From Opitutia bacterium (lineage in GTDB: Bacteria > Verrucomicrobiota > Verrucomicrobiia > Opitutales > UBA953), in the NCBI GenBank assembly GCA_037129735.1, contig JBAXUJ010000001.1, positions 1 through 36,461 on the forward strand: a stretch of DNA of 36,461 nt, given 5' to 3'. Positions 4,978 through 36,082 of this stretch are shown here, one piece after another; the first letter of the stretch is position 1, and each line of letters begins with the position of its first letter. A program made the translations under genes and the position numbers. Below the pieces are notes generated by a model. The model saw only the letters and a list, made by a program, of their open reading frames with translations, did no database searches and had not been told where the DNA came from.

Positions 4978-6033
4978 ATGGAAAAAAATTTATCTAAATA
5001 TTCAAGTGAAGTTATCGCGATAATCCCGGCGCGAAGTGGTTCTAAAACAGTTCCGCATAAAAATATTCGTACATTTGCGGGTAAGCCATTATTGGCTCAT
5101 TCTATTAGCCAGGCTTTAGACTCTGGTGTAGTGAATCGAGTGATTTTAAGTACTGATAGTGAACAGTATGCTGAAATAGGTAAACAATACGGAGCAGCTG
5201 TACCTTTTTTAAGACCGGTCGAAATTTCCGGAGATTTTTCAACGGATCTCGAATGTTTTAAACATGCACTAGAGTGGCTGAATAAAAATGAAGGTCAGGT
5301 TCCAGAATTTATTGTTCACTTACGGCCGACACATCCTAATCGCCGTCCAGCGGATATTGCACGGGCCATTGAGTTACTCCGTCAGCACCCCGAGTGGGAT
5401 TCCGTTCGCTCGGTTGTAGCGGCCCCAGAGACGCCTTATAAAATGTGGTTCCGAAATGATTTAGGAGAACTTACTCCAGTCATAAATTCAGATATTAAAG
5501 AAGCCCATAGTCGCCCCAGACAGGGGTTGCCGAGCACTTTTTTACAGAATGCGAATATCGATGTTATTCGTTCGCGAACTATCCTCGAAAAAAGCTCCGT
5601 AGCCGGTGATCGGGTTGGTTCATTGTTAATGGAAGAAATACACGATATCGATACTCATGCGCAGTTTGCCCGAGCTGAAGAATCTTTTATTTGGTCTAAC
5701 GGGATTCCTGTGGGTAAAACTTTTGTTTTTGATATCGATGGAGTGATTGCAACCATCACTCCTGGCAATAACTACGAATTAGCAGGCCCGCTTGTTGATA
5801 ACATTAAACGCATCAACAGAATTTACGAGGCTGGTAATCACATTGTTTTATTCACCGCGCGTGGATCCGCCACGGGAATTAATTGGTCGGAGACAACACA
5901 GCGTCAAATGAATGAATGGGGGGTCAAACATCATAAGCTGATGTTTGGTAAGCCAGCTGCAGATTATTACATTGATGATAAACTCATCAGTTTAGAAACC
6001 CTTTCGCAAATCGACAAATTTCTTAACCCCTAA
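4978..6033 (+). CDS. Acylneuraminate (nonulosonate) cytidylyltransferase-family enzyme fused to a C-terminal HAD-like phosphatase domain
   Basis: N-terminus AIIPARSGSKTVPHKNIRTFAGKPLLAHSI matches the CMP-NeuAc synthetase (CTP_transf_3) signature. The C-terminal ~110 aa carry HAD motifs: FVFDIDGVIAT (DxDG, nt ~5731-5742), FTARG, and GKPAADYYIDDK. Confidence 0.85.
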   Translation: MEKNLSKYSSEVIAIIPARSGSKTVPHKNIRTFAGKPLLAHSISQALDSGVVNRVILSTDSEQYAEIGKQYGAAVPFLRPVEISGDFSTDLECFKHALEWLNKNEGQVPEFIVHLRPTHPNRRPADIARAIELLRQHPEWDSVRSVVAAPETPYKMWFRNDLGELTPVINSDIKEAHSRPRQGLPSTFLQNANIDVIRSRTILEKSSVAGDRVGSLLMEEIHDIDTHAQFARAEESFIWSNGIPVGKTFVFDIDGVIATITPGNNYELAGPLVDNIKRINRIYEAGNHIVLFTARGSATGINWSETTQRQMNEWGVKHHKLMFGKPAADYYIDDKLISLETLSQIDKFLNP

Positions 6034-6037
6034 TATT

Positions 6038-7525
6038 ATGAATCCCCCCAACGACATACTCTACATTTTTGAGATGGCTAATAACCATCAAGGAGATGTT
6101 CAACACGGCCTAAAAATAATCGATGCGATGGCAAAAATCGCTCGTGATAATGGTATTCGCGCCGCGGTTAAGTTCCAGTATCGAGATCTCGATACGTTTA
6201 TTCACCCAGCCCACCAGTCGAGTGATAGTAAACATATTAAGCGTTTTCGTGAGACAAGATTAAGTAGAGAACAGTACCTCACACTCGTTGAAGCAACTCG
6301 TGAGGCCGGGCTGATAACCATGTGTACGCCTTTCGATGAAGTTTCTGTTAAGGATATTATAAATCATGGAATCGAAATTGTAAAAATTGCTTCCTGTAGT
6401 GCTAATGACTGGCCGCTCTTGGAGGCTATTGCTGCGGCGCGTAAGCCTGTAATCTGTTCAACCGGTGGCCTGCGCATCGAACAAATCGACCAAGTGGTTA
6501 ATTTCTTGGAGCACCGTAAAGTCGACTTTTCAGTTCTGCACTGTGTGGGAATATATCCAACGCCCACCGACGGTCTTTATCTAAACTTTATGGAGCGAAT
6601 GATGAAGCGCTATAATTGGCTTCGCATTGGTTATTCAGGACATGAAGATCCCAATGACGTTGATGTTGTTAAGGTAGCGGTAGCGAAAGGTGCGCGTATT
6701 CTTGAAAGGCATGTAGGAGTAGAAACACCGACATCCAAATTAAATGCTTATTCCATGAGCCCTGAGCAAACGGATCGCTGGGTTAAAGCTTCAATCAATG
6801 CTTTGAGAATTGGTGGAGCTCAAGGACAAGAGAAGCAGATTGTTCAAGTTGAAGTTGATTCATTACAATCTCTCCGTCGCGGCACTTATCTGAAGGTTCC
6901 CGTTCGCAAAGGTGAGGTCATTAGTGCCGACAAGGTGTATTTCGCAATGCCCTGTGCTGCCGACCAAACCGCAAGTTGTGAGTGGCTTGCGACCATGGTA
7001 GCTTCGCGTGACTATAAAGTTGATGAAGGAATTCAAGAGCGTCGTCAGTCTACTTTAACCAGTTCGCTGCGCAGTTTAGTTCACCAAGGCAAGGGGATGC
7101 TTTATGAAGCGGGTATTAAAATTGGACCTAAGTATACCGTTGAGATGTCTCACCATTATGGCCCAGAAAATTTTCGATCTCACGGTGCTTTGATTGTTAA
7201 TCTGATTAATCGCGAATATTGTAAGAAGCTCGTGATTGTATTTCCCGGTCAACGTCACCCCAATCATCGTCACCTCAAAAAAGAAGAAGTCTTTCAGGTT
7301 ATTCACGGCGATCTCGAGGCTGTGGTCGACGGCAAGATTCAACAATTAAAGCCCGGTGATATGGTCCTGGTTGAGCGAGGAATGTGGCACAGTTTCTCCT
7401 CTGTAAATGGATGCGTCTTTGAAGAAGTTTCCACAACGCATATTGTGGGAGATTCTTATTATGAGGACGAAAAAATTGCTAAATTGGATCCGATGCAGCG
7501 TAAAACAATTCTTGATATGTGGTAA
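6038..7525 (+). CDS. NeuB-family PEP-condensing (nonulosonate/ulosonate) synthase fused to SAF and cupin domains
   Basis: 495 aa. FEMANNHQGD...AVKFQ and KIASCS, GYSGHE are NeuB/SpsE-like TIM-barrel motifs. The central LRRGTYLKVPVRKGEVIS resembles a SAF domain. The C-terminus HPNHRHLKKEEVFQVIHGDLE...PGDMVLVERGMWHSF is a two-motif cupin. Confidence 0.8.
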   Translation: MNPPNDILYIFEMANNHQGDVQHGLKIIDAMAKIARDNGIRAAVKFQYRDLDTFIHPAHQSSDSKHIKRFRETRLSREQYLTLVEATREAGLITMCTPFDEVSVKDIINHGIEIVKIASCSANDWPLLEAIAAARKPVICSTGGLRIEQIDQVVNFLEHRKVDFSVLHCVGIYPTPTDGLYLNFMERMMKRYNWLRIGYSGHEDPNDVDVVKVAVAKGARILERHVGVETPTSKLNAYSMSPEQTDRWVKASINALRIGGAQGQEKQIVQVEVDSLQSLRRGTYLKVPVRKGEVISADKVYFAMPCAADQTASCEWLATMVASRDYKVDEGIQERRQSTLTSSLRSLVHQGKGMLYEAGIKIGPKYTVEMSHHYGPENFRSHGALIVNLINREYCKKLVIVFPGQRHPNHRHLKKEEVFQVIHGDLEAVVDGKIQQLKPGDMVLVERGMWHSFSSVNGCVFEEVSTTHIVGDSYYEDEKIAKLDPMQRKTILDMW

Positions 7526-7527
7526 AT

Positions 7528-8838
7528 ATGGCTACGATCGGCATACTCATTAATCACTACGATGCCCGAAATGATATTCGGGACTTAGTAGCGGAAATTG
7601 CTCGAAATCATCGGGTGGTATTATTGTCTAAAGAAAAAACTTTAGCTCATCCATTACCTGCTGGAGTCGAACTTCGTGCACTGGTATCGGTTCATCTTAA
7701 TAAAAGAAAATTTTGGAATAAGCTATTTACTTGGTTTGGGAAGCTGCCCCGTTCCAAGGAAAATTATTATATTAACGAGCTCTTTAAGCTAGGTCGACTG
7801 AGCCCGCTTCGACAAACCTTTGGAAAGTTAAAACTCAAACTCCAAATGTGGATGCCAAGGTTTATGAGTATCAATCAGCTTTTACCGTTACTTGCTCCGT
7901 GTGATTCGACTCATATTTCAGATATCGACAGCTTTTTATTAATTACTGAATTCGCTGACATCCCGATGTTGGCACGAATTTGTGATTCAGGGAAACCCGC
8001 CTGGGCCTATCTTTATAGTTGGGATCATCCCTGCAAGCACACCGTTCTCACGGACCGACTTACGGGCTATCTTGTGTGGAATAAAAAATTGGCCAAAGAC
8101 ATGGAAGAACTCCAAGGAGTTTCCCTCGATAAGTGTAAAATTATTGGAGCGACTCAGCTTTGCCCCATTGTTGATTACTTGGCATCTACCTCAACGTTGC
8201 CACGCCAAGGCCGCATCGAAGGTCGCCCTTATTTTTATTTTGGATGTGGCACAGGTTATGCTCCACTTTCACGCCGAGAAATTAAATTGGTTGCAGACCT
8301 CGCAGATCTTTTAAGTAAAGAATTTCCAGAGCATCTCTTATTAGTTCGGCCTTATCCTATGTTTAGTGATGACTCGGTACTCGCGGAAATTAAAGCAAAA
8401 CCCAACGTACGGATTGATGACGAATTTAGATCATTTCAAGTCGGTCGATCCCTACGTTCAGTTGATATCCATAAGCGCTTAGATTTACAGCGAGGCTCAG
8501 CTTGTTTTATTCATGTTGGTACAACCATGGGCTATGAAGCCGCTTTTTTGGGCTGCCCAGTGGTCTTTATTAATCTTATTTCCGACTTAAATACCGGAGG
8601 GGCAACCGATACAGAAAGTCTCTCAACATTTGCTCGGCAATACCACGTCCAGAGATACCTTGTCGGTAATTATCCATCTTCAGCTAATAATTTATCGGAA
8701 GCCGTAGCGGCATTAAAAACAGCGGTTAGTTTTCCTGATAAAATGATTCCTTATAATGATTATGTTTCTTCGGATACACCGCTAATGTCTATGCCTCAAT
8801 TAACGCAAAAGATACTAGATCAGTCACAACAAAATTAA
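7528..8838 (+). CDS. Hypothetical protein; possible GT-B-like transferase for the activated ulosonate made by the two upstream genes
   Basis: The ORF track starts at GTG 7519, and ATG 7528 is the more likely start. I recognise no strong signature. SWDHP and LLLVRPYP are faintly reminiscent of sialyltransferase HP and TagF-like motifs. The position is immediately 3' of the synthase and cytidylyltransferase genes. Confidence 0.3.
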   Translation: MATIGILINHYDARNDIRDLVAEIARNHRVVLLSKEKTLAHPLPAGVELRALVSVHLNKRKFWNKLFTWFGKLPRSKENYYINELFKLGRLSPLRQTFGKLKLKLQMWMPRFMSINQLLPLLAPCDSTHISDIDSFLLITEFADIPMLARICDSGKPAWAYLYSWDHPCKHTVLTDRLTGYLVWNKKLAKDMEELQGVSLDKCKIIGATQLCPIVDYLASTSTLPRQGRIEGRPYFYFGCGTGYAPLSRREIKLVADLADLLSKEFPEHLLLVRPYPMFSDDSVLAEIKAKPNVRIDDEFRSFQVGRSLRSVDIHKRLDLQRGSACFIHVGTTMGYEAAFLGCPVVFINLISDLNTGGATDTESLSTFARQYHVQRYLVGNYPSSANNLSEAVAALKTAVSFPDKMIPYNDYVSSDTPLMSMPQLTQKILDQSQQN

Positions 8839-19784: not shown

Positions 19785-20948
19785 ATGAAAAAAACTGTCG
19801 CAATTATTGCTGGCACTCGTCCTGAGTGTGTAAAAATGGCTCCGATTTATTTTGCACTCCAAGAGTCCAAAATCATTCAGCCTATTTTTCTCTCTACGGG
19901 TCAACACCGCCAGATGTTGGATCAAACCTTAGGGGTCTTTGGTATTAAGCCCGAGTACGATTTAAATCTCATGCAACCTGGCCAAACTTTGCCTGATTTG
20001 ACAGGTCGCGTCATCCAAGCCGCTTCCGCTTGGTTTGTGGAACATAAACCTGCCGCCGTTCTAGTGCAGGGTGACACCACCACGGTTTTAGCTTCGGCCA
20101 TTGCTGCCTTTTATAATCGTATTCCGATTGGTCACGTCGAGGCGGGACTTCGTACGGGCAATATGGATTCACCTTTCCCAGAAGAAATGAACCGCCGCCT
20201 GACTTCTCCCCTAGCGCGTTGGAATTTCTGTCCTACGGAAATTTCCAAAGCGAATTTAGTTAGAGAGGGAATTAATCCAGCAAGCTGCTATGTTACTGGT
20301 AACTCAGTGATCGATGCTTTGCTTCACGTAAGAAAAAATCAAAGCAGTCGGGGACTATCAGCTCAATCGGTCGCCGAAAAAGTAGGAATTCCACCCGCCT
20401 TTGCCCAAGAGTTTTTAGCCGACGGCGCTCGTAAGCCCTGGATTTTAGTTACTGGTCATCGTCGCGAATCTTTCGGCGGAGGTTTTGAGCGCATTTGTGA
20501 ATCTATTAATCGCCTTACGCAAATTCACCCCGACGTCGGAGTGCTTTATCCTGTGCACTTAAACCCACAGGTTCAAGGGCCGGTTAATCGTATTTTAGGA
20601 TCCAATCCACGCATCGCGCTAGTTGCTCCCGCTGCCTACGAAGAATTTGTATGGTTGATGAATCGTTGCACCTTCCTGCTCAGTGATTCGGGTGGCGTGC
20701 AAGAGGAGGCACCTTCATTAGGTAAGCCCGTATTGGTGATGCGCGATACCACCGAGCGTCCCGAGGGCGTTGACGCTGGTACTTGTCGTCTCGTTGGTAC
20801 CGACCCCGAAGTGATTTTACGCGAAGCGGATTTGCTTTTAAATAATCCTGGAGAATATCAACGCCGCTCGAGCTTAAAAAATCCTTATGGCGATGGACAG
20901 ACCTCGCATAAAATCCGACAGATTCTCGAAGCTGGTTTGATTCAATAA
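19785..20948 (+). CDS. wecB: UDP-N-acetylglucosamine 2-epimerase (non-hydrolysing)
   Basis: The track starts at 19737 inside the upstream gene, and ATG 19785 (MKKTVAIIAGTRPE) fits the family N-terminus. QGDTTTVLASAIAAFYNRIPIGHVEAGLRTGN..PFPEEMNRRLTS and SDSGGVQEEAPSLGKPVLVMRDTTERPE are present. Confidence 0.93.
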   Translation: MKKTVAIIAGTRPECVKMAPIYFALQESKIIQPIFLSTGQHRQMLDQTLGVFGIKPEYDLNLMQPGQTLPDLTGRVIQAASAWFVEHKPAAVLVQGDTTTVLASAIAAFYNRIPIGHVEAGLRTGNMDSPFPEEMNRRLTSPLARWNFCPTEISKANLVREGINPASCYVTGNSVIDALLHVRKNQSSRGLSAQSVAEKVGIPPAFAQEFLADGARKPWILVTGHRRESFGGGFERICESINRLTQIHPDVGVLYPVHLNPQVQGPVNRILGSNPRIALVAPAAYEEFVWLMNRCTFLLSDSGGVQEEAPSLGKPVLVMRDTTERPEGVDAGTCRLVGTDPEVILREADLLLNNPGEYQRRSSLKNPYGDGQTSHKIRQILEAGLIQ

Positions 20949-26667: not shown

Positions 26668-26894
26668 TGTCGTTAACTTTCGAATCCCATCTTCAAGCAC
26701 TTCAAAAAGAAGTCGATGTACTTGTGGGAGTGTCACCCGATGCTCCCTTAAGCGGTCTGCCACAATGGGACTCACTGGCAATTTTATTAGTGATTTCTCA
26801 TTTTGAGTCTACTTACAAAATGAGTGTGACCGGAAAAGAAATTCGTCAGTGTAAAACCATTCGAGAACTTATTAAACTTATCCCTCAATCATGA
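26667..26894 (+). CDS. Second acyl carrier protein-like protein
   Basis: The track starts at 26637 inside the KAS III gene. ATG 26667 (TAATG overlap) gives a 75-aa protein with LPQWDSLAILLVISHFE (Ser36, nt 26772-26774). Confidence 0.6.
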   Translation: MSLTFESHLQALQKEVDVLVGVSPDAPLSGLPQWDSLAILLVISHFESTYKMSVTGKEIRQCKTIRELIKLIPQS

Positions 26895-27517
26895 AAAATC
26901 TTTTTATTGTCGGTGCTGGCGGATTTGGTCGCGAGGTTTATGCCTGGATCAAGCAACATCCTGAATTTAACAAGACTTGGGTTCTAGCTGGATTCTTGGA
27001 TGACAATCTCGAAGCCCTTAATCCTTTTGGTAATTTCGCCAATGTCTCAGTTTTAAAGAATCACCAAGTTTCACCCGCTAACGTTTATATCTGTGCCTTA
27101 GGACTCCCCCTGGTTAAATCGAAATTACTTGCTCCATTGATTGAGCAGAAGGCAGAGTTTATTTCTTTTATTCATCCGACGGCTGTCATCGGCGAAAGAG
27201 TAAAGATAGGTCGCGGAGTGGTTGTTTGCCCCGGAGCGAGTATTTCCGTGGATATTTCGATTGGCGATTTTTCTATGATTGGACCCAATACTACCATCGG
27301 ACATGATGGCACTATTGGCGCATGGTGTACGCTGTGTGCACAGTGCGATGTCACTGGTCGTGTTACCATTGGCGACGGAGTGTTTTTAGGAAGTCGGGTT
27401 TCCATTATACCCAGCAAAAAAGTTGGCCGTGGCTCTATTCTTGGTGCTGGTTCCGTGGTAATATCCGATGTCCCCGAGGGAGTGACGGTGGTCGGTAACC
27501 CCGCGCGTATTTTATAA
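26891..27517 (+). CDS. NeuD/PglD-family sugar N/O-acyltransferase (Rossmann-like N-domain plus LbH)
   Basis: 208 aa. LFIVGAGGFGREVYAWI...AGFLDD, then the hexapeptide repeats IHPTAVIGERVKIGRGVVVCPGASIS...VVGNPARIL. ATGA overlap with the ACP gene. Confidence 0.85.
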   Translation: MKNLFIVGAGGFGREVYAWIKQHPEFNKTWVLAGFLDDNLEALNPFGNFANVSVLKNHQVSPANVYICALGLPLVKSKLLAPLIEQKAEFISFIHPTAVIGERVKIGRGVVVCPGASISVDISIGDFSMIGPNTTIGHDGTIGAWCTLCAQCDVTGRVTIGDGVFLGSRVSIIPSKKVGRGSILGAGSVVISDVPEGVTVVGNPARIL

Positions 27518-33299: not shown

Positions 33300-34427
33300 A
33301 TGAAAAAAATCTATTTATCTGCGCCTGATATCGGTAAACTTGAGCAGGTCTACGTGAATGAGGCCTTTGCCACCAATTGGGTGGCTCCTGTGGGTCCTCA
33401 CATCGATGCCTTCGAAAGAGAATTTTCTCAGGTCGTTGGAACGAAGTATGCCGTCGCGTTATCTTCAGGCACGGCCGCTTTACACTTAGCACTCCGCCTG
33501 GCTGGGGTGACAGCGGGTGACGAAGTTTTGTGCTCTTCGCTCACGTTCATTGCTTCCGCTGCTCCGATTACTTACTTGGGCGCCCATCCAGTATTTATTG
33601 ATTCCGATGAAGTCAGTTGGAATATGGATCCCGCTTTAGCTATTGAAGTTATAGAGAAAAAGGTGCGCGCTGGTAAAACTCCTAAGGCGCTCGTCTTAGT
33701 TCACTTGTATGGACAATCCGCCGATACCCAACCGATTAAGGAGTGCTGCGATAAGCACGGCATTAAACTCATTGAGGACGCCGCCGAGGCCCTTGGAGCT
33801 ACTTATAAGAGCGGTACACCAGGTTCAATGGGTTGGGCCGGAATTCACTCCTTTAATGGTAATAAAATTATCACCACGTCAGGAGGCGGTATGCTGGTCA
33901 CGAATGACGAGAAATTAGCGACAACCGCCCGATTTTTATCCACCCAAGCTCGCGATCCAGCTCCACATTATCAACACACGACGATTGGTTATAATTATCG
34001 TATGAGTAATATTTGTGCGGGTATTGGTCGTGGTCAATTAAGTGAGCTCGGCAAGAAGGTGGCGCGACGCCGAGCGCACTTCGCCGCTTATCAAGAAGCA
34101 TTTAAAACTTTTCCTGGTGTAGCGATGCAACCCGAGGCGTCTTGGGGTAAATCCACCCATTGGTTAACCTGTTTAACAGTCGATCCAAGCAAGTCGCCAG
34201 TATCCCGTGAAGAGGTTAGACTGGCTTTAGAAAAAGAAGATATTGAAAGCCGGCCGATCTGGAAGCCCTTACACCTTCAGCCCGTATTTGCTCAAGCTGA
34301 GTATCATGGTCGTGGGGTGAGTGATAGAATTTTCGAACAAGGCTTATGTGTTCCGTCGGGCTCAGGTATGTCGGACAGCGAGCGCAATCGCGTCATTGAT
34401 TCGACGGTGAAACTGTTTGCTAAATAA
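33300..34427 (+). CDS. DegT/DnrJ/EryC1-family PLP sugar 4-aminotransferase (PglE/EpsN-like)
   Basis: 375 aa. KIYLSAPDIGKLEQVYVNEAFATNWVAPVGPHIDAFEREF..ALSSGTAALHLAL...FNGNKIITTSGGGML (PLP Lys context). Close to the B. subtilis EpsN N-terminus as I recall it. Confidence 0.9.
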   Translation: MKKIYLSAPDIGKLEQVYVNEAFATNWVAPVGPHIDAFEREFSQVVGTKYAVALSSGTAALHLALRLAGVTAGDEVLCSSLTFIASAAPITYLGAHPVFIDSDEVSWNMDPALAIEVIEKKVRAGKTPKALVLVHLYGQSADTQPIKECCDKHGIKLIEDAAEALGATYKSGTPGSMGWAGIHSFNGNKIITTSGGGMLVTNDEKLATTARFLSTQARDPAPHYQHTTIGYNYRMSNICAGIGRGQLSELGKKVARRRAHFAAYQEAFKTFPGVAMQPEASWGKSTHWLTCLTVDPSKSPVSREEVRLALEKEDIESRPIWKPLHLQPVFAQAEYHGRGVSDRIFEQGLCVPSGSGMSDSERNRVIDSTVKLFAK

Positions 34428-35476: not shown

Positions 35477-36082
35477 TTACTTAGCGTCACCCTCAAACTC
35501 TTCCATGGTAGCTGCCTTACTTGAATTAATATTGCTACGATTTAGGACGACAAAAAAAGTTCTTACGACGATTTTAAGATCCAACCAAAAGCTACTGTTA
35601 TCGATGTATGAAACATCGAGCGCAAATTTCTCATCCCAACTGATGGCGTTGCGGCCATTGATTTGGGCTAAACCCGTGACGCCTGGTTTCATTTCCATGC
35701 GTCGCGCCTGAAATTTATTATAGCGTGGTAAATAGCGCATCATTAAAGGGCGTGGGCCGACGACGCTCATATCTCCGATGAGCACATTCCACATTTCGGG
35801 AAATTCATCGAGCGTGGTGGATCGCAAAAATTTGCCAAAGGTGGTCAGGCGTACTTCGTCAGACAGTAGATTTCCTGCTTCGTCTCTGGCATCTGTCATG
35901 GTTCGGAATTTTACCATACGAAAGGGCTTCGCGTCTTTACCGGGGCGCTCTTGAATAAAGAAAATGGGTGAGCCGAGTTTAATCCGTACTAAAACTCCAA
36001 CGACGATTAAGAGTGGCGAAAACCCGATGAGCCAAGCCAGCGAAAAAATAATATCGAAGGCTCTTTTGAAAAAATGATACAT
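35477..36082 (-). CDS. Small monotopic phosphoglycosyl transferase (PglC/EpsL-type bacterial sugar transferase), initiating enzyme
   Basis: 201 aa. KRAFDIIFSLAWLIGFSPLLIVVGVLVRIKLGSPIFFIQERPGKDAKPFRMVKFRTM, DEFPEMWNVLIGDMSVVGPRP, KPGVTGLAQINGRN. Confidence 0.92.
   Translation of the reverse strand: MYHFFKRAFDIIFSLAWLIGFSPLLIVVGVLVRIKLGSPIFFIQERPGKDAKPFRMVKFRTMTDARDEAGNLLSDEVRLTTFGKFLRSTTLDEFPEMWNVLIGDMSVVGPRPLMMRYLPRYNKFQARRMEMKPGVTGLAQINGRNAISWDEKFALDVSYIDNSSFWLDLKIVVRTFFVVLNRSNINSSKAATMEEFEGDAK

What the first reader, a model, noticed from the sequence alone, without database searches (positions are those of the whole stretch)
4978..7525. Ulosonic-acid branch built from two unusual fusions: cytidylyltransferase::HAD and NeuB::SAF::cupin
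The cytidylyltransferase carries a C-terminal capless HAD domain (DIDGV ... GKPAADYYIDDK). This differs from the SGNH esterase domain seen in some NeuA proteins. The NeuB-family synthase carries an extra C-terminal cupin (HPNHRH...GDMVLVERGMWH).

A HAD phosphatase in this position is the logic of the 9-phosphate routes (animal Neu5Ac-9-P, Bacteroides Kdn-9-P): condensation of PEP with a sugar phosphate, then dephosphorylation, then CMP activation. No hydrolysing NeuC-type epimerase is present, and the WecB at 19785..20948 has the non-hydrolysing signature. The substrate is therefore probably not free ManNAc. The cupin could isomerise or epimerise the sugar or sugar-phosphate precursor. Together these point to a non-standard Kdn/Neu-like nonulosonate or octulosonate.
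Basis: partly seen in the sequence, partly recalled or inferred. Interest (0 to 1): 0.6.

Follow-up and report, generated by a model that had tools for sequence, protein, structure and literature searches.

The report
Two-gene CMP-ulosonic acid (Kdn-like) cassette
Two adjacent genes pack four enzyme domains (sugar isomerase, sialic-acid-type synthase, phosphatase, CMP-activating enzyme) that most likely turn a common sugar phosphate into an activated nitrogen-free sialic-acid relative (probably Kdn) for the cell surface. The pair is real and untested at the bench, but it is common across bacteria rather than rare.

Summary
Both fusions exist as described. ORF 4978-6033 is a NeuA/PseF-type cytidylyltransferase with a C-terminal capless HAD domain whose four catalytic motifs are intact. 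ORF 6038-7525 is a NeuB-family synthase. Its last 160 residues are a complete D-lyxose/D-mannose isomerase domain with the metal ligands conserved, not a bare cupin.

Neither fusion is unusual. NeuB::isomerase occurs in at least 506 species genomes across many phyla. The CT::HAD gene lies beside it in most loci. This scan has already noted the cassette on other DNA (48 notes in at least 47 genomes).

Other fusions tie the four activities to one pathway: HAD::NeuB::isomerase and NeuB::isomerase::CT. Other cassettes place unrelated HAD types next to the synthase. In Clostridia and Lachnospiraceae the pair sits in flagellin glycosylation islands beside Maf transferases, which use CMP-nonulosonates.

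Best reading:
- Ketose phosphate is isomerised to aldose phosphate.
- PEP condensation follows, then dephosphorylation, then CMP activation.
- This parallels the Kdn-9-P route of Bacteroides and Prymnesium.

Kdn is the most likely product but is unproven. No paper on this fusion type was found. A Serratia marcescens NeuB fused to a different isomerase-like domain is required for a Kdn-containing capsule.

The parts
4978..6033 (+). Gene for the cytidylyltransferase::HAD fusion (351 aa).
   Evidence: ORF. Pfam and NCBIfam matches. PDB matches.
5014..5685 (+). CMP-ulosonate cytidylyltransferase domain (residues 13-236), of the NeuA/PseF type rather than the KdsB type.
   Evidence: PF02348 scores 79.6 bits. 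TIGR03584 PseF scores 136 bits against 33-42 bits for KdsB models. The N-terminal IIPARSGSK..KN motif aligns to solved NeuA 9ftb.
5716..6009 (+). Small capless HAD phosphatase domain (residues 247-344) with motifs DIDGV, TARG, GKP and DD.
   Evidence: Motifs seen in alignment A3. The model has pLDDT 93.8. The nearest solved structures are 9iqw (phage AfhF, D-arabinose 1,5-diphosphate phosphatase) and 1xpj.
6038..7525 (+). Gene for the NeuB::SAF-like::D-lyxose-isomerase-like fusion (495 aa).
   Evidence: ORF. Pfam matches. Homologues of 495-500 aa conserved along the full length.
6059..7033 (+). PEP-condensing synthase: NeuB TIM barrel plus SAF-like tail (residues 8-332).
   Evidence: Aligns to PDB 3g8r over residues 8-317 (E 2e-88). 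The alignment to N. meningitidis NeuB keeps the equivalents of E25, K129, S132, S154, S213, H215, E234 and H236. By my reading of the AVKFQ motif, which HMMER placed differently, K53 and Q55 are kept too. Ser stands at E134, Gly at N184 and Met at R314.
7043..7522 (+). D-lyxose/D-mannose isomerase-like cupin domain (residues 336-495) with H410, H412, K415, E417, H451 and E463.
   Evidence: The model has pLDDT 92.4. Foldseek matches 2y0o and 7nzo/p/q at TM 0.73-0.76 over about 165 columns. The profile against PDB gives E 9e-15 and 9e-14 to the same enzymes. The residues are invariant in A1.
7519..8838 (+). Candidate ulosonate transferase (439 aa), translationally coupled to the synthase gene.
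   Evidence: No Pfam hit. hhalign gives 96.7% probability (E 3.6e-10) to proteins encoded near NeuB::isomerase in seven other loci, directly downstream in several. One of these matches PF04464, the TagF-like family. The function is inferred from position only.

Best explanation
The two genes form a self-contained four-domain pathway to a CMP-activated 3-deoxy-2-ulosonic acid.

Proposed steps:
1. The C-terminal lyxose/mannose-isomerase-like domain converts a central ketose phosphate (most likely fructose-6-P) to the aldose phosphate (mannose-6-P).
2. The NeuB domain condenses it with PEP to give the omega-phosphorylated ulosonate (Kdn-9-P).
3. The HAD domain removes that phosphate.
4. The cytidylyltransferase domain makes the CMP-sugar (CMP-Kdn).
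5. The downstream 439-aa protein adds the sugar to the repeat unit of this Wzx/Wzy polysaccharide.

Shown here: the domain identities, the intact catalytic motifs, the genetic linkage and the fusions.

Inferred: the order of steps, a phosphorylated substrate, and Kdn as the product.
For: All four domains keep their catalytic residues.

Linkage of the two genes:
- CT::HAD lies within about 5.5 kb of NeuB::isomerase, and usually directly beside it, in about 55 of 80 species loci spanning Verrucomicrobia, Planctomycetes, Proteobacteria, Bacteroidota, Chloroflexi and Firmicutes.
- No other sugar-modifying gene is conserved with the pair. This argues for a substrate taken from central metabolism.

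Fusions that join the activities:
- HAD_2::NeuB::isomerase, 678-760 aa.
- NeuB::isomerase::CT, 741-954 aa.

HAD phosphatases of different types flank the synthase in other cassettes: a stand-alone HAD_2 and a weakly NT5C-like protein.

The nearest solved relative of the window's HAD domain removes a terminal sugar phosphate: 9iqw AfhF, a D-arabinose 1,5-diphosphate phosphatase.

The NeuB domain lacks Arg314 and Glu134 of the ManNAc-using enzyme. PMC8208679 reports that eukaryotic NanS, which uses a phosphosugar, also lacks Arg314 and has Asp in place of Glu134.

The CT domain is of the nonulosonate type, not the KdsB type.

Forty of 80 loci carry Maf flagellin glycosyltransferases. Maf enzymes are known to use CMP-nonulosonates (abstracts listed).

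Precedents:
- The Kdn-9-P route of B. thetaiotaomicron and P. parvum (PMC6200933).
- A Serratia marcescens neuA plus neuB(isomerase-fusion) pair required for a Kdn-containing capsule (PMC9000132).

Kdn/Neu-type acids are detected often in prokaryotes (PMC8157484).
Against: - No enzyme of this subfamily has been assayed, so the product is unknown.
- The solved lyxose isomerases that the domain resembles were crystallised with free fructose or mannose. From my own knowledge, characterised members act on unphosphorylated sugars.
- Eighteen of 68 genome loci and 10 of 26 metagenome loci with enough flank show no HAD gene within 4 kb.
- Three homologues carry a HAD domain without the nucleophile Asp.
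- The HAD is not the KdsC type used in the known Kdn and Neu5Ac-9-P routes.
- The Serratia NeuB belongs to another clade (27-29% identity) with a non-homologous isomerase-like domain, so it is an analogy and not homology.
- The sequences of BT1714 and human NANS could not be compared here.
Confidence: 0.55

Rival explanations
1. Same cassette and same chemistry, but a different sugar. The isomerase acts on xylulose-5-P to give lyxose-5-P. The product is then an eight-carbon acid (3-deoxy-D-galacto-octulosonate, an isomer of Kdo), or another undescribed ulosonic acid, activated as a CMP-sugar.
For: The isomerase domain's best matches are D-lyxose isomerases. From my own knowledge, several of these prefer the pentose. 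The NeuB domain is far from every characterised equivalog: TIGR03569 scores 160.8 bits against a 399.65 cutoff, and PseI 121.5 against 340.25. Its sugar-side residues differ from NeuB. A preprint abstract states that C. botulinum Maf can transfer Kdo, so Maf linkage does not fix the chain length.
Against: The cytidylyltransferase is far closer to NeuA/PseF than to KdsB. To my knowledge no such eight-carbon acid has been reported. Kdn-type signals are common in prokaryotes and would be explained by this widespread cassette.
Confidence: 0.15
2. Free-sugar route. The isomerase converts free fructose to mannose, and NeuB condenses free mannose with PEP directly to Kdn. The HAD domain does something else, for example releasing the free ketose from its phosphate, or serving as a structural or oligomerisation module as in vertebrate CMP-sialic acid synthetase.
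For: Solved relatives of the isomerase bind free fructose and mannose. A sizeable minority of loci lack any nearby HAD, and three homologues have a dead HAD. The vertebrate CMAS C-terminal HAD-like domain (3ewi) shows up among the weak fold matches. From my own knowledge that domain is reported to be inactive.
Against: The HAD motifs are strictly conserved in 33 of 36 homologues. HAD domains of unrelated subfamilies are recruited next to the synthase, or fused directly to it rather than to the CT. A phosphatase acting on fructose-6-P would drain a central metabolite. The NeuB domain lacks the Arg314 that free-ManNAc enzymes need.
Confidence: 0.15
3. Classical amino-nonulosonate pathway (legionaminic or pseudaminic type). 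The NeuB-like enzyme condenses a 2,4-diacylamido-2,4,6-trideoxyhexose made by the aminotransferase and acyltransferase genes further down the window.
For: The window holds a LegC-like aminotransferase at 33300-34427 (377.7 bits, just under the 420 cutoff). It also holds a PglD-like acyltransferase at 26891-27517.
Against: There is no hydrolysing 2-epimerase (NeuC/LegG). The only epimerase is WecB. The two-gene pair recurs in many genomes without such genes. The PseI and NeuB equivalog scores are far below their cutoffs. The aminotransferase and acyltransferase sit beside a small phosphoglycosyl transferase at 35477-36082. That fits a bacillosamine-type first sugar.
Confidence: 0.05

Closest known systems
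Kdn-9-phosphate pathway of Bacteroides thetaiotaomicron (BT1714 synthase, BT1713 phosphatase, CMP-Kdn synthetase) and Prymnesium parvum (PMC6200933)
   Same: A NeuB-family synthase, a HAD phosphatase and a CMP-transferase make a nitrogen-free nonulosonate from a hexose 6-phosphate and PEP. No NeuC is involved.
   Different: Here an isomerase is built into the synthase, so the pathway can start from a ketose phosphate. The phosphatase is fused to the transferase and belongs to another HAD subfamily (TIGR01689/AfhF-like, not KdsC-like). The substrate and product are untested.
Serratia marcescens KL1/KL2 capsule genes neuA and neuB (PMC9000132)
   Same: Two genes at the head of a Wzx/Wzy capsule locus. 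NeuB carries an extra isomerase-type domain. The capsule contains Kdn, and neuB is required.
   Different: The extra domain there is COG1082 (sugar phosphate isomerase/epimerase), not a cupin. Proteins of the same length as that neuB ORF (746 aa from 2241 bp), with NeuB+SAF+AP_endonuc_2+CBS domains, are only 27-29% identical to the window's NeuB domain. That these are the Serratia type is my inference from length and domains; the Serratia sequence itself was not compared. The resemblance is therefore a parallel invention.
D-lyxose/D-mannose isomerases (B. subtilis YdaE 2Y0O, Thermofilum 7NZO-7NZQ, E. coli Z5688 3KMH)
   Same: Same fold over the whole 160-residue domain. Same HxH..KxE..H..E active-site pattern.
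   Different: About 21-24% identity. Always fused (or occasionally adjacent) to a NeuB synthase. The family has its own invariant motifs (SHHYG, NREYCKK, STTH..DSYY) not shared with the two lyxose isomerase sequences shown. Whether these bind a phosphate is unknown.
Vertebrate CMP-sialic acid synthetase (CMAS) with a C-terminal HAD-like domain (PDB 3ewi)
   Same: A cytidylyltransferase followed by a capless HAD-fold domain in one chain.
   Different: The CMAS domain is KdsC-like. From my own knowledge it is reported to be inactive. The window's domain is AfhF/1xpj-like and keeps all four catalytic motifs.
PDB 3g8r, Chromobacterium violaceum 'SpsE' (structural genomics, no assigned function)
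   Same: The closest solved relative of the synthase domain (E 2e-88 over residues 8-317). It shares the subfamily motifs.
   Different: The solved 350-residue chain has no isomerase domain. Its genomic context was not examined here.

Membership tests
NeuB family of PEP-condensing ulosonate synthases (PF03102) | Pfam model scores above the gathering cutoff. | tested here: met
   153.7 bits against 22.1.
NeuB family of PEP-condensing ulosonate synthases (PF03102) | Metal and PEP residues of N. meningitidis NeuB are present (E25, K53, Q55, K129, S132, S154, S213, H215, E234, H236). | tested here: met
   The equivalents are E12, K116, S119, S141, S200, H202, E223 and H225 in the alignment. K45 and Q47 come from my reading of the AVKFQ motif, which HMMER aligned differently. 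All are invariant or nearly so in A1. The residue roles come from PMC8208679 and my own knowledge.
N-acetylneuraminate synthase proper (TIGR03569) or pseudaminate synthase (TIGR03586) | Equivalog score cutoff, plus Glu134 and the SAF-domain Arg314. | tested here: not met
   160.8 bits against 399.65, and 121.5 against 340.25. Ser121 stands at E134 and Met304 at R314.
D-lyxose/D-mannose isomerase family (PF07385) | The fold, and the metal tetrad plus the Lys and Glu pattern. | tested here: met
   TM 0.73-0.76 to 2y0o and 7nzo/p/q. H410, H412, K415, E417, H451 and E463 are aligned and invariant. PF07385 scores 28.2 bits against a 20.8 cutoff.
D-lyxose/D-mannose isomerase family (PF07385) | NCBIfam equivalog NF051472, and activity on free lyxose or mannose. 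| tested here: not met
   15.6-19.4 bits against a 350 cutoff. Activity cannot be tested with these tools.
HAD superfamily phosphatases | Motifs I-IV (DxD nucleophile, Ser/Thr, Lys, acidic pair) and the Rossmannoid fold. | tested here: met
   DIDGV, TARG, GKP and DD are present. The model has pLDDT 93.8 and matches 9iqw and 1xpj.
KdsC-type (C0) ulosonate-phosphate phosphatases (Kdo-8-P, Kdn-9-P) | Close sequence or fold relationship to KdsC/YrbI/BT1713. | tested here: not met
   KdsC structures appear only at E 7e-3 to 2e-2 and TM 0.43-0.49, behind AfhF, 1xpj, Pnkp phosphatases and HisB-N. No KdsC model hit appears in NCBIfam.
CMP-nonulosonate cytidylyltransferases (PF02348, NeuA/PseF type) | Pfam model above cutoff, and the N-terminal PARxGSK..KN nucleotide motif. 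| tested here: met
   79.6 bits against 22.6. The motif aligns to NeuA 9ftb. The PseF equivalog cutoff is not reached (136.4 against 205.7).
Kdn-9-phosphate pathway | The synthase uses mannose-6-P, the phosphatase hydrolyses Kdn-9-P, and the transferase activates Kdn. | not testable with these tools
   Needs enzyme assays. Only indirect evidence is available.

The most novel reading that the evidence does not exclude
The cassette does not make Kdn. It makes a so far undescribed ulosonic acid, for example an eight-carbon 3-deoxy-D-galacto-octulosonate from xylulose-5-P. Its isomerase domain would be the first phosphosugar-specific member of the lyxose isomerase family. That would add a new CMP-sugar to bacterial surfaces and to the flagella of gut Lachnospiraceae.
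Probability: 0.2. Interest if true: 0.8.

Novelty: new variant of a known kind. Interest (0 to 1): 0.58.

Why it matters
Kdn-type acids are detected often in prokaryotes (PMC8157484), yet the only bacterial genes I found tied to Kdn are in Bacteroides thetaiotaomicron and Serratia marcescens. This compact pair occurs in at least 506 species genomes. It could be the main bacterial source of such sugars.

If two proteins suffice to make the CMP-sugar from glycolytic intermediates, they would be a handy tool for glyco-engineering.

The link to Maf flagellin glycosylation islands in Lachnospiraceae and Clostridia predicts a new flagellin modification in abundant gut bacteria. That prediction can be tested directly by mass spectrometry.

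Tried and rejected
- Literature. Searches for NeuB with cupin, lyxose isomerase with sialic acid synthase, Kdn-9-phosphate in bacteria, teichulosonic acid genes and AfhF found no paper on this fusion. Two flagellin-island papers do not mention it.
- Unfused relatives. I looked for genuinely unfused members of the synthase subfamily to see which isomerase they pair with. The metagenome relatives of the 'short' representatives proved to be fused too (c0 median 506 aa). One short representative is annotated as partial.
- Downstream protein. I tested whether the window's 439-aa protein belongs to the Firmicute TagF-like group that follows the synthase. It does not (hhalign probability 1.2%).
- Missing comparisons. 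A direct comparison with BT1714, human NANS or Serratia NeuB was not possible, because no tool gave those sequences.
- No coordinates.
- Rejected reading. The legionaminic or pseudaminic interpretation was rejected.
Full report
**Observation.** The window is one long co-directional polysaccharide locus. It holds heparinase-like proteins, Ugd, GT4 and GT2 transferases, Wzy, WecB, an acyl-carrier cassette, a UbiA/DprE1-like arabinose module and a small phosphoglycosyl transferase.

ORF 4978-6033 encodes 351 aa and ORF 6038-7525 encodes 495 aa. They lie 4 nt apart, and the next ORF overlaps the second stop.

**Gene 1, the cytidylyltransferase::HAD fusion.**
- It matches PF02348 at 79.6 bits.
- It matches the PseF model over residues 13-236 at 136 bits, below the equivalog cutoff. 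KdsB models reach only 33-42 bits.
- Solved NeuA and CMP-Neu5Ac synthetases match at E 2e-31 to 4e-19.
- Residues 247-344 match TIGR01689 weakly and PDB 9iqw at E 9e-8.
- An alignment of 36 such domains shows HAD motifs I-IV (DIDGV, TARG, GKP, DD) in 33 of them, including the window. Three gammaproteobacterial copies (L014, L024, L043) have lost the nucleophile.
- A model of the domain (pLDDT 93.8) is closest to 9iqw and then 1xpj. The library titles 9iqw as phage HY126 AfhF, a D-arabinose 1,5-diphosphate phosphatase.
- KdsC-type phosphatases and the mouse CMAS C-terminal domain follow only at E about 1e-2.

**Gene 2, the synthase::isomerase fusion.**
- It matches PF03102 at 153.7 bits and Cupin_2 at 43 bits. 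PF07385 (D-lyxose isomerase) scores 28.2 bits.
- The NeuB and PseI equivalogs are far below their cutoffs.
- The best solved relative of the synthase part is 3g8r, an unassigned C. violaceum protein (E 2e-88).
- In the alignment to N. meningitidis NeuB the PEP and metal residues are kept. Ser stands at Glu134, Gly at Asn184 and Met at Arg314.
- PMC8208679 lists E25, E134 and E234 as catalytic and R314 as essential in bacterial enzymes. It reports that eukaryotic NanS, which uses a 6-phosphosugar, has Asp at 134 and lacks R314.

The last 160 residues were modelled on a 40-sequence alignment (pLDDT 92.4).
- The best structural matches cover the whole domain. They are the D-lyxose isomerases 2y0o, 7nzo/p/q and 3kmh (TM 0.71-0.76). 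Small phosphomannose isomerase cupins match only the barrel.
- A profile of the domain finds 2y0o and 7nzo at E 9e-15 and 9e-14, with the HxH..KxE and H..E motifs aligned.
- These residues are invariant across homologues.
- The 'cupin' is therefore a complete aldose-ketose isomerase domain.

**How common it is.**
- A word-indexed search returned 7353 hits. The best 120 are all 415-515 aa with NeuB plus Cupin_2.
They span Verrucomicrobia, Planctomycetes, several proteobacterial classes, Bacteroidota, Chloroflexi, Myxococcota, Bacillota and one archaeal bin.
- An exhaustive HMMER search with the synthase part gave 241 clusters (50% identity) at E 1e-30 or better. Most of the best 150 are 450-535 aa.
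- Apparent short forms are partial, or have fused relatives.
- The fusion is therefore the normal state of this NeuB subfamily.
- The scan's notebook holds 48 earlier notes on this cassette in at least 47 other genomes, read in the same way.

**Linkage.**
- tblastn of the window's domains against the 80 genome loci shows the CT domain near NeuB::isomerase in most loci. The HAD domain sits directly behind the CT in about 55 of them.
- ORF clustering found no other biosynthetic gene conserved with the pair across phyla.
- In Bacillota the pair lies in flagellin glycosylation islands. Maf-type proteins (PF01973) occur in 40 loci and flagellin in 35, with FliS and FliD nearby.
- TagF-like proteins occur in 30 loci. 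They often come with IspD-like or TagD-like cytidylyltransferases.
- The abstracts listed describe Maf enzymes as CMP-nonulosonate-dependent flagellin glycosyltransferases.

**Is a phosphatase part of the pathway?** Five observations bear on this.
- The HAD motifs are conserved.
- Longer proteins of the same synthase subfamily (46-55% identical) exist as HAD_2::NeuB::isomerase, NeuB::isomerase::CT, NeuB::oxidoreductase::isomerase and NeuB::SDR::isomerase.
- In metagenome loci, two other cassette types put a stand-alone HAD_2 protein, or a protein weakly matching the NT5C model (E 1.8e-4, just under its cutoff), right after NeuB::isomerase.
- Against these, 18 of 68 genome loci and 10 of 26 metagenome loci with enough flank have no detectable HAD within 4 kb.
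- P. parvum also lacks a dedicated Kdn-9-P phosphatase, which its authors put down to redundant sugar phosphatases.

**Interpretation.** The simplest scheme that uses all four domains runs as follows.
1. Ketose phosphate is isomerised to aldose phosphate.
2. The aldose phosphate is condensed with PEP.
3. The terminal phosphate is removed.
4. The acid is activated with CTP.

With fructose-6-P as the substrate, this gives CMP-Kdn through Kdn-9-P, as in B. thetaiotaomicron and P. parvum.

A Serratia marcescens neuA-neuB pair offers a parallel. Its NeuB carries a COG1082 isomerase-like domain, and it is required for a Kdn-containing capsule. Proteins of that length and architecture are only 27-29% identical to the window's synthase domain, so this is analogy, not homology.

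Three points remain open:
- whether the isomerase takes a phosphosugar;
- whether the chain has nine or eight carbons;
- what the HAD-less loci do.

The only 2-epimerase is a non-hydrolysing WecB, and the bin holds a single NeuB homologue.

**Transferase.** The coupled 439-aa protein has no Pfam hit. It is related to proteins encoded near NeuB::isomerase in seven other loci, directly downstream in several (96.7%, E 3.6e-10). One of these matches PF04464. The invariant R-x-H-P of those proteins aligns with R-P-Y-P in the window.

**Verdict.** This is a widespread, experimentally untested variant of the phosphate-route sialic acid pathways.

Noticed in passing
L016, L017, L025, L032, L060, L075, L080 and about 30 other loci (Lachnospiraceae, Clostridia, Paenibacillus): The CT(::HAD) and NeuB::isomerase pair sits between flagellin/FliS/FliD genes and Maf-type glycosyltransferases. 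This predicts an undescribed ulosonate modification of flagellin in gut and soil Firmicutes.
   Followed up: partly
L014:8652-8933, L024:8317-8625, L043:8656-8958: In Panacagrimonas and Salinisphaerales homologues the fused HAD domain has lost the DxD nucleophile (FSLGAL, FALSSL, FSLSAL) but is retained.
   Followed up: no
P0273-P0288 and P0135: Higher-order fusions occur in the same synthase subfamily. NeuB::isomerase::CT (741-954 aa) includes members named as Patescibacteria. HAD_2::NeuB::isomerase (678-760 aa) includes one named as Gemmatimonadales. NeuB::GFO-oxidoreductase::isomerase and NeuB::SDR::isomerase also occur.
   Followed up: partly
L110, L112, L115, L117, L122, L123, L136, L141, L148 (metagenome loci): A second, larger conserved cassette surrounds NeuB::isomerase. 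It holds a DegT aminotransferase, an SDR, a nucleotidyltransferase, an NT5C-like HAD, a 600-aa thiamine-diphosphate enzyme, a NUDIX protein, a C-methyltransferase and a radical SAM/SPASM enzyme. Its product is unknown.
   Followed up: no
L084-L090, L101-L103, L113 (metagenome loci): A third cassette type runs: GFO/IDH/MocA oxidoreductase, NeuB::isomerase, stand-alone HAD_2 phosphatase in some of these loci, a 235-aa cytidylyltransferase without HAD, a methyltransferase, and often a TagF-like protein.
   Followed up: partly
window 7519-8838: The candidate transferase aligns R-P-Y-P with the invariant R-x-H-P of its relatives, so the conserved His is a Tyr here. This may mean altered chemistry or an inactive copy.
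   Followed up: no
window 33300-34427, 26891-27517 and 35477-36082 (minus strand): A LegC-like aminotransferase (377.7 bits, just under the 420 cutoff), a PglD-like acyltransferase and a small PglC-like phosphoglycosyl transferase suggest a bacillosamine-type first sugar. This is separate from the ulosonate branch.
   Followed up: no
whole genome of the window (G000): The assembly is a 1.4-Mb bin in 233 contigs, rated 85% complete, with a single NeuB homologue.
   Followed up: no
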